Shown here: positions 58,945 through 64,000 of the stretch, in pieces
Numbering within the stretch: position 1 is the stretch's first letter
How the letters are laid out: each line of letters starts with the position of its first letter
NCBI RefSeq assembly: GCF_003334305.1
Contig: NZ_QOWS01000003.1
Strand: one strand, 5' to 3'
From: Escherichia coli
GTDB lineage: Bacteria > Pseudomonadota > Gammaproteobacteria > Enterobacterales > Enterobacteriaceae
DNA: 64,000 nucleotides
Made by a program: the position numbers

Positions 58945-61900
58945 TAATTCGTTATTCAACGAGACGTAAAAACGCCGACCATTGGTCGGCGTTTTGCTTT
59001 TGTAGCGAGCACTTGCAGATATCGATAAGGGCCACAATAAGCAGCCCTACGAAGATAATTACTTAGCTGCCTGAATATCAGCCAGCATTGGGGCAAGGGC
59101 TGGGTTGTCCTTAGCGAAGTTTGCGTACATTGGCTGTACTTTCTCGATAAACGGAGCTTTATCTACCTGGTAGACTTTCACGCCCATTTTATCCAGTTTC
59201 GCAAATTCTTGTTTCTCTTCCTCGCTCCACAAGTCTTTCATATAGCTCATTGATTCTTTAGCTGCTTTTAATATAACTGCCTGATTTTCCGGGCTAAGTT
59301 TATCAAACGCAGCATTGCTCATCAGAACCACATCGGGAACCATAGTGTGTTCGTCAAGGCTGAAGGATTTTGCCACTTCACCGTGACGCATGGTGGTCAG
59401 CGCCATCACGCTGTTTTCTGCCATATCGACCACACCCTGCTGTAAGGCTGTATACAACTCGCCGTAATCCAGTGGCGTCGGGTTACCGCCCATGACTTTG
59501 ATCATTTCAACTGCGCCAGGGCTTGGCTGGACACGGACTTTCATGCCTTTCAGATCGTCTGGTTTCAGTACTGGTTTATTGCCATAGAAACTGCGGGCGC
59601 CTCCATCATAAAAAGTCAGCCCGAAATAACCTTTGCTTTTCGTTGAGTCGAGGATTTTTCTCCCGATATCGCCCTGCATGACCTGATAATAATGATCACG
59701 ATCGCGGAACAAATAAGGCAGGCTAAATAATTTATAGGAATTTTCAAATGCTTCCATTTCTGCCGCATTGGTTTTTACCAGGGGAATAGCGCCAGAACGA
59801 ATCAGCTCCATTGTTTCTCGTTGAGTACCCAATGTTCCATTTGGATAAATACGAATAGTAATATCACCGTTAGAGTACTCTTTGCTCTTTTTCGCAAAGA
59901 ACTCCATCGCTTTATGAACAGGATGAGACTTATCCTGATTATGACTCAGTTTTAATGTCACTGCCCAGGACTGGCTTGCGGATAACATAAGAACAGCACC
60001 GATAATGCCAGCGGATACTTTTATTTTCATAGATGTTCCTTTTCTAATAAATATGGCGGCAGGTGCCGCCAGTGAATGCGCATCAGTAGCCCAGTGCTCT
60101 TGGCAATGCCATACTGATTTGCGGAATATAGGTCACCATTGCCAGCACCAATACCATCACGGCATAGAATGGCAGCATAGGTTTGATAATTTTATTAATC
60201 GGTAATTTAGATACACTACAACCGACAAATAACACACTGCCTACAGGCGGAGTACAAATACCGATACACATGTTCAGTACCATGACAATACCAAAGTGAA
60301 TCGGGTCCATGCCCAGTTCGGTGACAACCGGTAAAAATATCGGCGTAAAAATCAGTACCGCCGGTGTCATATCCATAAAAGTGCCGATAATCAACAGGAT
60401 AATATTGATAATAAGCAGGATTATTATTGGGTTGTCAGAAATAGTGTTAAGCAAATCGAGAATCAGGAAGGGAACGTCAGCGTTTGACATTGCCCATGAC
60501 ATACCCATCGAAGAACCAATTAATAACAAGACAATTGCAGTGGTAATAACGGATTCCAGAAATATTTTAGGTAAATCTTTAACTGAGATTTCACGATAAA
60601 GAACCAGTGCAAGGAAAAGGGTATAAATTACTGCAATTGCGGAGGCCTCTGTCGGGGTAAAAATACCACTTAATACACCCCCCATAATTAAAATAATCAG
60701 GAAAATACTGGGGATAGCCATCCATATCGCAACGCCAGCCTGGCGTAAAGTCGGGCGTTCTGGCTTTGGATAACCGCGACGTACCGCGATAATACCGGCT
60801 ATTACCATCAGTGCCAGACCCAGCAAAATTCCCGGAACATAACCCGCCAGGAACAGTGCGGCAATAGAAGTACCACCACTGACCAGTGAATAGACGATTA
60901 ACGTATTACTTGGTGGAATAAGCAAACCCGTCGGGGCAGAGGCAACGTTAACCGCAGTACTGAATGCCGGGTCGTAACCCTCTTTAACCTGTTGCGGATG
61001 CATGACGCCGCCCATCGCAGCCGCCGAAGCCACGGCTGAACCAGAAATTGCCCCGAACAGCATATTGGCGAGAATATTACAGTGGGCAAGTGAGCCTGGC
61101 AGACGACCGCCGAGAATACGGGCAAAGTTGATTAATCGTCGCGCTATTCCTCCATGATTCATAATGTTGCCAGACAAGATAAAAAATGGGATTGCCAACA
61201 ACGTAAAACTATCTAACCCGGAGGCTAACCTTTGGGAAACCACACTCAATGCTGAGTTGAAATCGAGTTGTGTGGAAATTGATGCCAGTGTCGATAAACC
61301 AATGGCATAAACAATAGGTACACCTAATGCCAACATAAAAAAGAAGGCACCAAATAACACAATAATCGGTAACCAGTAATCCATAATTTCTCCATTCCTA
61401 CTATGGTTGGTTGTTGTTTGTTATCTTTAGAGTGGTTGTTTAAGTTCGGTTAAAACCATATCTATGGTGTATATAATAATAAGTACACCACTAATCGGGA
61501 TACTCATATATATATATCCCATCTGCCAGCCTAAAGCGGGCGAGGTTTGACCTGAATCGAATGTATCCATCGTTAATAGCCCACCACCATATACCATAAT
61601 GATGGTAGCGAAGATAATTACGATAATCTGAATACACAAAAATAAATGACGTCGGGCTTTTCCTTTCAGCATCATAGGTAGCAGGTCAATCGCCAGATGC
61701 CGGTTTTGCCCTGCGGTGTATGCCCCACCAAAAAGTCCAAGACAAATAAAGAGCAAACGGCTGAGTTCATCTGTAAAAATACTGGGACTAGTAAATATAA
61801 ATCGTGCAGCCACCTGCCACGTCACACATGCCACGATGATCGCCAAAATGGTAATGTTCAATGCTGCAAGCAGAGCATTAATAGATCTAATTATATTTCG

Positions 61901-64000
61901 CATAGTGATTAACCTTTGCAATATCATTCATCCTGTGGCTGGTAAATTGTCCCATTAAGAAAACCAGGCCAGTTTTTTTCAAACCAAATACCTCGGATAA
62001 TAGGAAACTCACGAACAGGTGTTTCTCTGACGTGAAAGATACCGTTGCAATAATGAATAAGTAGTTTATCTTTTTTATCCTCAGTACGCTCTGAACGAAA
62101 GCGCCAGGCATCACAAAAACCATTTCGTGTTAGCGGAATAGAATTTCCATCCCTGTCGAGAATAATACGTGCTCCCCGGCTACCACCACCTGCGTCAATA
62201 TAATGCGTTAATTGCGTTAATACGGCGGCAGAAGTCAGTGCCATATGCCGCCACATAAACAGCTCGGCAACTTCACCCACATGTTTGATAGCCAATCCAT
62301 GCCGTTGGACAAATTCGTTCAATAACAGGGCATCACGAGTGGCACGTCGGACTTTATCGGCATGGCAAATAAATCCCGCATGGTCAGACATTCGTGCCTG
62401 AATTTTTTCTCTCACAACCGACAACGGCATCCCGGTCCCGTTATCGTGCGCCTGAGTAATGATCTCTCTTATAGAAGCCAGTGCCGGAGCTACGAGCTGT
62501 GCTATATCTCCATCAATATTCCGCTTTTGCGTGCAACCAATAAAACGTGCCAGACGAACAGCAAAAACCTGCCCGGCATTCAGCGCCGCACCGCCTGGTC
62601 GGGTAACGCCGTGAGTTCCGGCTACTTCTCCCACCGCAAAACAACCGGGCAGGGATGTTTGTCCCCAGATATCCACTTCAATGCCGCCATTCATATGCTG
62701 ATTATTCATGGCAAACTGCAAAGGCTGTGTGGTGAGATCGTAACCGTGCATCTTATACAGCGAGATAGACAGCGGATTCATTCGTTGCAGCCGTTCGATG
62801 GGCGATGGTGCCAGAGCGTCGTTATTTTCCAGATACGCGCGAACGTCGTCGTCCAGTCGATCTAATGAGAAGGGCAAATCACCAGGCACCGCTTCAGGAT
62901 TGCGATTGAAATCCATAAACACCCGACGACCATGTTGCTGCTCTTGCGCTACTGCCATATCTAACAAGCTGGAGCCAAAATCCATCACCCGAGTGGCGTG
63001 GAACGGCCACTGATAGCCTTTACGGAAAATGTTTGAAGCCAGCTCCTGGGTGGTGCGATAGTAATCCGCGAGGAAGTTATACTCGTTACCCTCAGCATCC
63101 ACGGAATAGATATACGGGATCACCTGTACATAGGTGCCGGATAAATTCCACGGAAACGTGCTACGCGGCGTGCCTATACCAAACTGGCTTTCGGTCAGAT
63201 TGGTTAGCGTCAAACCTTCCTCCAGCGCCAGCCCCAGCGAGCCAAAACATTTGTGTGGGTACACACTGTCGCGATAAAGCTCGCCAGGCCCTCCTGTTGC
63301 CAGTACCACATTGGGCGCAGTCACAATTGCCAGCCCCCATGGGTTATGGGCGCGATGACCGGTCGCGAGGATTGCCCCCGCCACACGGTCTTCGCCATTT
63401 TCGTCACGCTGATGCAGCAGTTTAATCACTGTTGCACTGGTCAACACTGGAATGGCGAGGCGCTGTACTTCTTCCAACAGCACTTTCACCATTAACCTTG
63501 AGGTACGCGGCCCACACGAGGTTGCACGCCCGGCTTCGTCATGGTCGGTTTGATAACGAAGAATCGCGCCATAGCGATCTTCCGGTAATTCCAGACCAAG
63601 ATATTGCAACCCGCCAAGAGTGTGCAGAGAACCTACCGCTTCGACATAAGCGGTGTCGTGATCCATCGCCCCACCGCTCGCCAGTGCCTCTGCCAGTTTG
63701 GTGAAGTTGTCGCCGTTGCCTGCGGTAGCGGCGGTAAACAGCGTCTGTTTATCGGAACCAGAACATGCCGACGTCCCCATATATAACCCGGCGGTGGCGA
63801 TCAGCACATTTTGCTGGCGGCGTTTAAGTTCCACAGCTGCACGCAGCCCGGCTGCACCACTGCCGACTACCAGGGCATCTGTTTGCCAGAGTGGGTAATC
63901 AACACCGTCTACCGTGACAACCCATGCGGGCTCTGCCTGTGCAAAACCCTTTGGGAAAGTAACGTGCGTCAGCGCATCAAGGATGGTGTCATCAAGCTGA

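What the first reader, a model, noticed from the sequence alone, without database searches (positions are those of the whole stretch)
59059..62300. Compositional mosaic: TRAP genes and flavoprotein 3' end are AT-rich relative to flanking core genes
Hand counts on sample 60-nt lines give roughly 33-48% GC in dctQ/dctM/dctP and the 3' end of the flavoprotein gene, versus roughly 55-60% in the 5' two-thirds of the flavoprotein gene and about 50% typical of neighbouring core genes. This is consistent with horizontal acquisition, possibly with a mosaic origin of the flavoprotein gene itself.
Basis: seen in the sequence. Interest (0 to 1): 0.45.

Follow-up and report, generated by a model that had tools for sequence, protein, structure and literature searches.

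The report
Swappable transporter cassette in E. coli operon
The AT-rich stretch is real: it is one of several interchangeable transporter cassettes at the end of a conserved enterobacterial catabolic operon, joined by recombination inside the flavoprotein gene, and it is an ordinary, old polymorphism rather than a recent foreign import.

Summary
The window is E. coli chromosome (aspA to rplI). Region 59059-62300 has 43.7% GC, against a window mean of 51.6%, and is the most AT-rich 3.2-kb stretch. The deficit survives correction for amino-acid composition.

The flavoprotein gene is a mosaic. Window and NC101 alleles are identical through codon 606 (62188). From codon 607 on they differ at nearly every codon. 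The other boundary lies just after the rplI terminator (~59001).

Of 5426 complete E. coli genomes, about 1450 carry this TRAP cassette. About 1680 carry the same enzyme genes with another 3' end; the examples examined have an MFS transporter. About 2300, including K-12, lack the flavoprotein gene; K-12 keeps only remnants.

The same operon occupies the rplI-ytfB slot in Salmonella, Klebsiella and E. marmotae, with either MFS or TRAP. In all of them the transporter, the flavoprotein tail and the TetR gene have lower GC3 than the enzyme genes. TRAP genes are as diverged between genera as the enzyme genes.

So a mosaic origin is supported, but a recent import from an AT-rich donor is not. The cause of the persistent AT-richness is unresolved. 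Interest is low to moderate.

The parts
58498..58947 (+). rplI, the conserved core flank on the right side of the variable segment.
   Evidence: RefSeq annotation of the identical strain A7. It is 99.8-100% identical in all haplotypes compared.
58969..59001 (+). rplI intrinsic terminator hairpin plus T-run. This is the right-hand boundary of the cassette.
   Evidence: Terminator-like site at 58969-58995. The TRAP, K-12 (yjfZ), NC101, E. marmotae and type-3 haplotypes share sequence through the terminator and T-run, differing only by a few substitutions in the hairpin. They become unalignable immediately after it.
59059..60030 (-). TRAP substrate-binding protein (DctP family), 323 aa.
   Evidence: NCBIfam TIGR00787 247.8 bits (cutoff 175) and NF037995. 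GC 0.448, GC3 0.46. The best solved relatives are hexuronate-binding proteins 4ovr, 4x8r, 4n8y and 4n15, at E 1e-67 to 1e-72. Ligands for 4x8r and 4n8y are given in PMC11668362, with related data in PMC7660916.
60054..60071 (-). GC-rich hairpin followed by a T-rich tail, between dctM and dctP. It could attenuate or stabilise the transcript.
   Evidence: Consensus scan only. Not tested further.
60083..61384 (-). TRAP large permease (DctM), 433 aa.
   Evidence: TIGR00786 458 bits (cutoff 268). GC 0.445. GC3 is 0.44 against 0.61 expected from its amino acids. It is 92-95% identical in protein to the Klebsiella huaxiensis, L095 and L087 copies, but only 0.77-0.78 in nucleotides.
61427..61903 (-). 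TRAP small permease (DctQ), 158 aa as annotated. An alternative ATG at 61927-61925 overlaps the flavoprotein stop codon (ATGA) and would give 166 aa.
   Evidence: Annotation. ORF 61427-61927 and the sequence itself. DctQ Pfam hits on the orthologues. GC 0.407 and GC3 0.38, the most atypical codon usage of the set.
61924..62187 (-). 3' end of the FAD-dependent oxidoreductase gene (codons 607-693 plus stop). It encodes the C-terminal small domain. It is AT-rich and travels with the transporter cassette.
   Evidence: For codons 614-693, GC3 is 0.29 against 0.55 expected. Those residues are 48% identical to the NC101 allele, against 98% for residues 1-613. In the AlphaFold model (pLDDT 87, pTM 0.91) the helical domain ends at residue 604 and a beta-rich C-terminal domain runs from 614 to ~690.
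62185..62190 (-). Recombination junction (codons 606/607), inside the sequence that encodes the near-invariant GGGSRGAR motif.
   Evidence: Codon alignment: the window and NC101 are identical over codons 576-606, then differ at nearly every codon from 607. Megablast homology in ~1680 genomes ends at 62165-62175. GC3 change-point candidates lie at 62214-62223.
62188..64000 (-). Body of the FAD-dependent oxidoreductase gene (codons ~3-606). The true start, at 64005, lies just beyond the window. Composition is host-like.
   Evidence: PF00890 FAD_binding_2 over residues 43-475, E 1.3e-27. The fold matches FrdA/SdhA over the full length: Foldseek E 4e-29, TM 0.65-0.78. GC is 0.538. It is 95.7% identical in nucleotides to the NC101 allele.

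Best explanation
Window 59002-62187 is the 'TRAP' version of an exchangeable transport-end cassette.

The operon. The cassette belongs to a catabolic operon conserved in Enterobacteriaceae between rplI and ytfB. The operon has a divergent TetR regulator gene, then genes for an SDR, a TIM-barrel isomerase or epimerase, an enoyl-CoA hydratase, a family-I CoA-transferase and an FrdA-like flavoprotein, and finally a transporter.

The alternative forms in E. coli (shown):
- TRAP QMP, as in this window.
- An ACS-family MFS transporter, with or without a MaoC gene and a HipBA module.
- Loss of the operon, with yjfZ in its place, as in K-12.

The exchange (crossover positions shown; mechanism inferred). 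Forms replace one another by homologous recombination. One crossover lies in the conserved GGGSRGAR-coding stretch of the flavoprotein gene. That stretch is also the boundary between the helical domain and the C-terminal domain. The other crossover lies at or just after the rplI terminator. The flavoprotein's poorly conserved C-terminal domain therefore always travels with the transporter, which makes the gene a mosaic.

The composition. The AT-richness is a long-standing property of the operon's variable modules (transporter, flavoprotein tail, TetR gene) in every enteric host examined. It is not a fresh signature of import.

Direction (inferred). E. marmotae carries the MFS form, and the E. 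albertii flavoprotein tail is of the MFS type. MFS is therefore probably ancestral in Escherichia. The TRAP cassette probably entered an E. coli lineage long ago from a related enteric bacterium with a TRAP-type operon.

Function (inferred). Both transporters probably import the same acidic substrate, possibly a sugar acid.
For: Sharp junction:
- The window and NC101 alleles are identical through codon 606 and divergent from codon 607.
- Protein identity is 98% before residue 613 and 48% after it.
- Megablast matches in ~1680 genomes stop at 62165-62175.

Right boundary:
- All haplotypes align through the rplI terminator and diverge at ~59001.

Population counts:
- The flavoprotein gene is in 3128 of 5426 genomes. 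The TRAP form is in 1444-1450, at 98.8-100% identity.

Alternative forms:
- NC101: MFS plus HipBA.
- Type 3: MFS plus MaoC, with no enoyl-CoA hydratase gene.
- K-12: yjfZ, a 102-nt SDR remnant, and a TetR 3' fragment annotated as ytfA.

Synteny in other genera:
- TRAP form: K. huaxiensis, a Jejubacter-like enteric and L095.
- MFS form: E. marmotae, Salmonella and K. oxytoca.

The same GC3 pattern in every host:
- K. huaxiensis, for example: enzyme genes 0.62-0.71, tail 0.42, TRAP 0.43-0.52, TetR 0.46.
- The tail-minus-body GC3 difference is -0.15 to -0.27 in most slot operons (-0.09 to -0.13 in the Jejubacter-like L087 and L095). It is -0.03 +/- 0.07 in 76 distant homologues.

Age of the cassette:
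- TRAP and enzyme genes are equally diverged between genera, and synonymous sites are saturated.

Structure:
- The junction coincides with a domain boundary in a confident model with an FrdA/SdhA fold.

Function:
- The TRAP binding protein is closest to solved hexuronate binders (PMC11668362; PMC7660916).
- The MFS is closest to the D-galactonate/ACS subfamily, below the curated cutoff.

No mobile-element signatures at the borders.
Against: - The direction of the swap is inferred from few genomes. The E. albertii transporter itself was not seen, because its contig ends inside the gene.
- No donor was found. The closest non-E. coli TRAP cassettes are only 0.67-0.79 identical in nucleotides.
- Other genera have an EamA gene between the transporter and rplI. 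Both Escherichia forms lack it. This makes a simple import from those genera awkward and leaves room for an old polymorphism within Escherichia.
- If the cassette is as old as the divergence suggests, its synonymous sites should have reached host composition. They have not, and this account does not explain why.
- The GC3 change-point is broad (codons 479-597). It does not sit exactly on the crossover at codon 606/607.
Confidence: 0.75

Rival explanations
1. Recent horizontal acquisition by this strain or lineage of the TRAP genes and flavoprotein 3' end from an AT-rich foreign donor, such as Vibrionaceae or Morganellaceae. The low GC would be an unameliorated donor signature.
For: - It is the most AT-rich 3.2-kb stretch in the window.
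- GC3 is far below the expectation from amino-acid composition.
- The cassette is present in only ~27% of E. coli genomes.
- More distant homologues of the binding protein are mostly from lower-GC gammaproteobacteria: Vibrio, Photobacterium, Providencia, Morganella and Xenorhabdus.
Against: - Those homologues are only 53-61% identical.
- The closest relatives (76-87%) are mainly enteric, and those examined lie in the same chromosomal slot with the same operon. One 76% relative is in a Rhodocyclaceae genome.
- The cassette shows normal within-species diversity across ~1450 genomes: 98.8-100%.
- TRAP divergence between genera equals that of the adjacent enzyme genes.
- The alternative MFS haplotype, and the orthologous operons in Salmonella and Klebsiella, show the same AT-rich tail and transporter.
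- There is no integrase, tRNA or repeat at the borders.
Confidence: 0.08
2. No transfer is needed to explain the composition. The AT-richness would reflect local evolutionary regime: hydrophobic, AT-codon-rich membrane proteins, plus weak selection or little GC-biased gene conversion on rarely expressed, fast-evolving or structurally polymorphic segments under AT-biased mutation. This is a local equilibrium, compatible with the cassette polymorphism but not caused by it.
For: - The deficit appears in every host and scales with host GC: E. coli, Klebsiella, Jejubacter-like.
- Synonymous sites are saturated between genera, so an ancestral signal should have decayed.
- The tail, TRAP Q and TetR are the least conserved proteins of the locus.
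- Even distant homologues show a slight tail deficit: -0.034, negative in 56 of 76.
- Amino-acid composition accounts for a minority of the total GC deficit.
Against: - TRAP M is 92-95% conserved, yet has GC3 0.44 against 0.61 expected.
- Core membrane proteins in the same window have GC3 0.53-0.70.
- The Rhodocyclaceae copy shows no step.
- The enteric tail deficit is about three standard deviations beyond the family norm.
- This account does not explain the sharp homology break, which is recombination whatever the cause of the composition.
Confidence: 0.3
3. The AT-rich modules are kept AT-rich by selection for regulation. Examples would be H-NS binding and silencing of a rarely needed operon, or an internal promoter or unstructured mRNA ahead of the transporter genes.
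For: - AT-rich segments bracket the operon at both ends, in the TetR gene and in the tail plus transporter, in all hosts.
- From general knowledge, DNA below ~45% GC in E. coli is typically bound by H-NS.
Against: - Promoter-like sites in 58800-62600 are no more frequent than in shuffles: 8 found against 8.4 expected.
- Nothing here tests H-NS binding.
- A 3-kb tract is much more than a promoter or ribosome-binding region needs.
Confidence: 0.12

Closest known systems
Alternative gene cassettes at a fixed chromosomal slot, exchanged by homologous recombination in conserved flanks (for example O-antigen and capsule loci of E. coli). Comparison from general knowledge.
   Same: - There are several non-homologous or deeply divergent alternatives between the same conserved flanks, rplI and the flavoprotein body.
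- The homology breaks are sharp.
- The variable part has lower GC than the flanks.
- The forms are patchily distributed within the species.
   Different: - One junction lies inside a coding sequence, at a protein domain boundary. Part of an enzyme is therefore swapped along with the transporter.
- The cargo is a solute transporter, not a surface-antigen pathway. No diversifying selection by host or phage is evident.
Classical horizontally acquired genomic island
   Same: It has atypical base composition and codon usage, and it shows presence/absence polymorphism among strains.
   Different: - It has no integrase or transposase, no tRNA target and no flanking direct repeats.
- The operon is syntenic across enteric genera and diverges like its neighbours.
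Hexuronate-type TRAP transporters, such as STM3169-3171 of Salmonella and the binding proteins crystallised with glucuronate or galacturonate (4x8r, 4n8y, 4n15)
   Same: - It has the DctP/Q/M three-gene architecture.
- The closest solved binding proteins are hexuronate binders, at E 1e-67 to 1e-72 (PMC7660916; PMC11668362).
   Different: - It is linked to a CoA-transferase, hydratase and flavoprotein operon, not to uxuABC-type hexuronate catabolism.
- The ligand is untested.
- It is also distinct from the E. coli YiaMNO TRAP system: 290 bits against a cutoff of 800 for YiaN.
FrdA/SdhA/L-aspartate oxidase flavoprotein family
   Same: - It has a FAD_binding_2 domain.
- It has the four-domain fold: FAD-binding, capping, helical and C-terminal domains.
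   Different: - Sequence identity is only 15-19%, and there is no PDB sequence hit at 1e-10.
- The operon has no Fe-S or membrane-anchor partner genes.
- All NCBIfam scores are far below their cutoffs.

Membership tests
Classical horizontally acquired genomic island | Base composition and codon usage differ from the host background. | tested here: met
   GC is 0.437 against 0.516 (sd 0.027). GC3 is 0.38-0.46 against a core mean of 0.566. The difference persists after correcting for amino-acid composition.
Classical horizontally acquired genomic island | Mobility signatures at the borders: integrase or transposase, tRNA target, flanking direct repeats. | tested here: not met
   No such genes are annotated. 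The only tRNAs are at 24269-24456. There are no border repeats. The borders are the rplI terminator and a site inside a gene.
Classical horizontally acquired genomic island | Closest homologues lie in distant taxa rather than in relatives at the same locus. | tested here: not met
   The closest binding-protein and flavoprotein homologues are mainly enteric, and those examined lie in the same rplI-ytfB slot. One 76% binding-protein relative is in a Rhodocyclaceae genome.
Mosaic gene or cassette replacement by homologous recombination | An abrupt change in identity between alleles of one species at a defined point. | tested here: met
   The window and NC101 are 100% identical over codons 576-606. 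Identity falls to 53-69% in nucleotides from there on. About 1680 genomes share this break.
Mosaic gene or cassette replacement by homologous recombination | Alternative segments lie between shared conserved flanks in the population. | tested here: met
   TRAP, MFS plus HipBA, MFS plus MaoC, and yjfZ/deletion forms all lie between rplI and the flavoprotein body or ytfB.
Mosaic gene or cassette replacement by homologous recombination | An identified donor lineage and a dated event. | tested here: inconclusive
   The nearest non-E. coli TRAP cassettes are 0.67-0.79 identical in nucleotides. No closer donor was found.
TRAP transporter (DctPQM) | A DctP-family periplasmic binding protein. | tested here: met
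   TIGR00787 247.8 bits (cutoff 175) and NF037995 252 bits (cutoff 50).
TRAP transporter (DctPQM) | A DctM large permease and a DctQ small permease, encoded next to each other. | tested here: met
   TIGR00786 458 bits (cutoff 268) for the M subunit. PF04290 DctQ on the orthologues in L085 and L087. For Q itself there is only a weak YiaM match, 36.5 bits.
TRAP transporter (DctPQM) | Transport activity and ligand. | not testable with these tools
   There is only similarity to solved hexuronate-binding proteins.
FrdA/SdhA-type flavoprotein | A FAD_binding_2 domain and the four-domain fold. | tested here: met
   PF00890 at E 1.3e-27. Foldseek against E. coli FrdA: E 4e-29, TM 0.65/0.78.
FrdA/SdhA-type flavoprotein | A partner Fe-S subunit (FrdB/SdhB) encoded alongside. 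| tested here: not met
   No such gene is present in the operon in any of the loci examined.

The most novel reading that the evidence does not exclude
The flavoprotein's C-terminal domain might be more than a passenger of the crossover. It could be a transporter-specific docking module.

- In FrdA/SdhA the equivalent domain is, to my knowledge, part of the interface with a partner subunit.
- Here, tails linked to TRAP share signatures that tails linked to MFS lack: G[IV]WFEKNWP, and IYQP/IYRP near the C-terminus.
- The flavoprotein stop codon overlaps a possible TRAP Q start (ATGA).

The enzyme might therefore bind its cognate importer and receive substrate directly. That would force the tail and the transporter to be exchanged as one unit.
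Probability: 0.06. Interest if true: 0.6.

Novelty: new member of a known kind. Interest (0 to 1): 0.3.

Why it matters
It is a clean worked example that a compositional step can mark a real recombination junction without marking a recent foreign import. The same AT-rich pattern is shared by the rival cassette and by orthologous operons in other genera. GC-based island callers would misdate this region.

It also documents a common three-state polymorphism in E. coli. About 27% of genomes carry the TRAP form, about 31% carry another 3' end (MFS in the examples examined), and about 42% lack the flavoprotein gene. The polymorphism sits in an uncharacterised CoA-dependent catabolic operon next to the ribosomal rpsF operon. 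It explains the K-12 pseudogene ytfA as the remnant of that operon's TetR regulator gene.

The unexplained persistence of low GC3 in a well-conserved permease gene is a small but testable case for the debate on what maintains GC content in bacteria.

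Tried and rejected
It returned mostly distant homologues (Rhodobacteraceae, Rhizobium, Planctomycetota) and missed the Klebsiella and Salmonella loci. I recovered those through the look-up of encoding contigs instead.
- L094, an E. coli genome whose binding protein is 86% identical, has a fragmented operon with many short ORFs. It is either a degraded copy or a poor assembly, and I did not use it.
- Two literature searches for the operon or locus found no description of it.
- The PDB sequence search with the flavoprotein found nothing at 1e-10. Only the fold search was informative.
- The promoter and terminator scan of the cassette showed no enrichment of promoter-like sites.
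- The repeat search found no border repeats. The Rfam search found only the known RpsF leader.
- My first per-gene table used coordinates shifted by 111 bases for genes before 24300. The window has two tRNA-Gly copies where strain A7 has three. I corrected this.
- I rejected 'membrane-protein amino-acid composition' as a sufficient cause.
- I rejected 'recent import from Vibrio-like donors'.

Full report
**What the window is.** The window is E. coli chromosome, from aspA to just beyond rplI. Positions 44400-64000 are 100% identical to strain A7, NZ_CP028767.1. Downstream of the rpsF-priB-rpsR-rplI operon, on the minus strand, lie:
- a TRAP binding-protein gene (59059-60030);
- a TRAP large permease gene (60083-61384);
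- a TRAP small permease gene (61427-61903);
- a 693-aa FAD-dependent oxidoreductase gene (61924-64005), which the window end cuts.

In A7 the operon continues with genes for a family-I CoA-transferase, an enoyl-CoA hydratase, a TIM-barrel 'sugar phosphate isomerase/epimerase' and an SDR. A divergent TetR gene and then ytfB and fklB follow.

**Checking the observation.** It is correct.
- Per-gene GC is 0.448, 0.445 and 0.407 for TRAP P, M and Q. For 66 flanking genes it is 0.521 +/- 0.035.
- GC3 is 0.46, 0.44 and 0.38 for the TRAP genes, against 0.566 +/- 0.066 for the flanking genes.
- The reported interval has GC 0.437. It is the most AT-rich 3.2-kb stretch of the 64 kb. The next lowest, at yjfI-yjfL, is 0.459.
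- Within the flavoprotein gene, the last ~94 codons have GC3 0.24-0.32, against 0.42-0.66 upstream.
- The step is significant: Fisher P = 7e-5, and the change-point statistic exceeds all 2000 permutations. Its position is broad, at codons 479-597.
- Amino-acid composition does not explain it. With core codon usage, expected GC3 is 0.56-0.61 for the TRAP genes and 0.55 for the tail. Observed values are 0.38-0.46 and 0.29.
- Core polytopic membrane proteins in the window have GC3 0.53-0.70.

Three corrections apply. The flavoprotein body is about 54% GC, not 55-60%. The strongly AT-rich part is about the last eighth of the gene, not the last third. dctM has a central stretch of normal GC.

**The flavoprotein gene is a mosaic.**
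- The gene is present in 3128 of 5426 complete E. coli genomes.
- Only ~1450 genomes match the window through its 3' end and the TRAP genes.
- In ~1680 genomes the match stops at window 62165-62175.
- In a codon alignment the window allele and the NC101 allele are identical over codons 576-606. From codon 607 (62187) on they differ at nearly every codon, even within the conserved GGGSRGAR motif.
- Protein identity is 98% before residue 613 and 48% after it.
- On the other side, all haplotypes align through the rplI terminator hairpin and its T-run (58969-~59001). They become unalignable immediately after it.

**What the alternatives are.**
- NC101 has an MFS transporter of the anion:cation-symporter type in place of TRAP, plus a HipBA-like module next to rplI.
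- A third E. coli form has an MFS transporter plus a MaoC hydratase gene, lacks the enoyl-CoA hydratase gene, and carries an AT-rich CoA-transferase allele.
- K-12 has lost the operon. It has yjfZ, a 102-nt remnant of the SDR gene, and the 3' fragment of the TetR gene, annotated as the pseudogene ytfA.

The far side of the window strain's operon is also unusual. Its TetR-ytfB segment is only ~78.5% identical to the majority E. coli allele, and is shared at >=95% by about 355 genomes. Within the gene body, the window allele is patchily closer to the NC101 type than to another TRAP-type E. coli, L005. The whole rplI-fklB interval is thus a recombination patchwork.

**The operon is old and syntenic.** The same operon sits between ytfB/fklB and rplI in:
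- E. marmotae, Salmonella enterica and Klebsiella oxytoca, with MFS;
- Klebsiella huaxiensis, a Jejubacter-like enterobacterium and another unnamed enteric, with TRAP.

Between E. coli and these genera, the TRAP genes are 0.67-0.79 identical in nucleotides and the enzyme genes 0.73-0.84. Synonymous sites are saturated in both. The next-nearest binding proteins, from Vibrio, Photobacterium, Providencia, Morganella and others, are only 53-61% identical. No mobility genes, tRNA or border repeats are present. This rules out a recent import from an AT-rich foreign donor.

E. marmotae has MFS, and the E. albertii tail is of the MFS type. MFS is therefore probably ancestral in Escherichia, and TRAP was probably acquired by replacement. 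This direction is an inference.

A Rhodocyclaceae genome carries the operon with TRAP proteins 65-85% identical to E. coli's, while its enzymes are only 42-62% identical. Transport and enzyme modules have therefore had separate histories more than once.

**The composition pattern is shared, which changes its meaning.** In every enteric version, the transporter, the flavoprotein tail and the TetR gene have lower GC3 than the five enzyme genes. This holds for both TRAP and MFS versions, and the values scale with host GC.

| Host | Enzyme genes | Flavoprotein tail | Transporter | TetR |
|---|---|---|---|---|
| E. coli window (TRAP) | 0.52-0.57 | 0.29 | 0.38-0.46 | 0.39 |
| E. coli NC101 (MFS) | 0.51-0.58 | 0.32 | 0.48 | 0.44 |
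| Salmonella (MFS) | 0.57-0.63 | 0.39 | 0.52 | 0.45 |
| K. huaxiensis (TRAP) | 0.62-0.71 | 0.42 | 0.43-0.52 | 0.46 |
| Jejubacter-like (TRAP) | 0.76-0.79 | 0.70 | 0.60-0.71 | 0.58 |

The Rhodocyclaceae copy is flat. In 76 distant homologues, the tail is only 0.034 +/- 0.067 lower in GC3 than the body.

The AT-richness therefore belongs to the variable modules of the enteric operon, not to this strain's history. Why it persists at saturated synonymous sites is not explained. TRAP M is the hardest case, because its protein is 92-95% conserved. Candidate explanations are:
- repeated replacement from an AT-richer allele pool;
- a local mutation-selection or gene-conversion equilibrium;
- selection for AT-rich DNA, for example for H-NS binding.

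**Structure and function context.** An AlphaFold model of the flavoprotein is confident (pLDDT 87, pTM 0.91). It has the four-domain FrdA/SdhA fold (Foldseek E 4e-29 to E. coli FrdA). The helical domain ends at residue 604, and a small beta-rich C-terminal domain runs from 614 to ~690. The crossover therefore sits at a domain boundary, and the whole C-terminal domain is swapped. That domain is the least conserved part of the protein in all comparisons.

The simplest reading is that the GGGSRGAR-coding stretch is the last sequence similar enough for homologous recombination before the divergent tail.

The TRAP binding protein is closest to solved hexuronate binders (PMC11668362; PMC7660916). 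The alternative MFS is closest to the D-galactonate/ACS subfamily. Both fit uptake of an acidic, possibly sugar-acid, substrate. The CoA-transferase, hydratase, SDR and flavoprotein would then process it. I found no paper describing the operon.

**Verdict.** The 'mosaic flavoprotein' idea is right, and the junction can be placed to within a few bases. The 'horizontal acquisition signalled by AT-richness' idea is only partly right. The segment is an exchangeable cassette, but an old one shared with other enteric genera. Its composition is a property of the module class rather than a fresh import signature. This is an ordinary kind of genome plasticity at a locus not described in the literature I searched, so interest is low to moderate.

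Noticed in passing
window 24269-24456: The window has two tandem tRNA-Gly(GCC) genes where strain A7 has three. This ~111-bp copy-number difference is the only length difference from A7 over the first 44 kb.
   Followed up: partly
window 56280-56831: A YagU-family (DUF1440) gene lies between ulaF and yjfY. It is absent at this position in K-12 and NC101. GC is 0.47 and GC3 0.47, so it is another small strain-variable insertion.
   Followed up: partly
window 46058-47699: aidB is annotated as a frameshifted pseudogene in the identical strain A7.
   Followed up: no
window 61924-61927: The flavoprotein stop codon overlaps an upstream in-frame ATG of the TRAP small permease ORF (ATGA). That start would give a 166-aa DctQ, the length called in K. 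huaxiensis, and would allow translational coupling. RefSeq starts the gene at 61903 (158 aa).
   Followed up: partly
beyond the window: L001 23793-25061 (TetR and ytfB of strain A7): The TetR-ytfB segment of this strain is only ~78.5% identical to the majority E. coli allele. About 355 of 5426 genomes share it at >=95%. RefSeq does not even name this ytfB as YtfB. This is a second, deeper allelic split at the other end of the operon.
   Followed up: partly
L003 5588-5689 and 5695-6096 (K-12): The K-12 pseudogene ytfA is the 3' part of the operon's TetR regulator gene. A 102-nt remnant of the SDR gene (~80% identity) lies beside it. K-12 therefore descends from an operon-bearing form, of the NC101 type (97.7% identity across TetR-ytfB-fklB).
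   Followed up: yes
L090 (E. coli, Logan SRR11848740) 5461-11985: A third E. coli haplotype lacks the enoyl-CoA hydratase gene and has a MaoC-type hydratase gene after the MFS transporter. Its CoA-transferase allele is AT-rich (GC3 0.38). This looks like a non-orthologous replacement of the hydratase.
   Followed up: partly
L089 (Logan DRR121775; Rhodocyclaceae, Uliginosibacterium-like): A betaproteobacterial copy of the operon has TRAP proteins 65-85% identical to E. coli's, but enzymes only 42-62% identical. The TRAP module seems to have moved between classes independently of the enzymes.
   Followed up: partly
hits H1/H21 (strain H15), H25 (cS76a), H30 (G3/10), H51 (ES2): Several E. coli strains have IS3 or IS1A insertions inside the TRAP permease genes. 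The cassette is being inactivated in some lineages.
   Followed up: no
window 41931-44175 and 5828-6697: yjfI-yjfL (GC 0.39-0.47) and yjeJ (GC 0.45) are the other clearly AT-rich gene blocks of the window.
   Followed up: no
window 57426-57510: An RpsF leader (Rfam RF02893, 110 bits) lies upstream of rpsF. This is a known element in its expected place.
   Followed up: yes
window 60054-60071 (minus strand): A GC-rich hairpin with a T-rich tail lies in the 52-nt gap between dctM and dctP.
   Followed up: no
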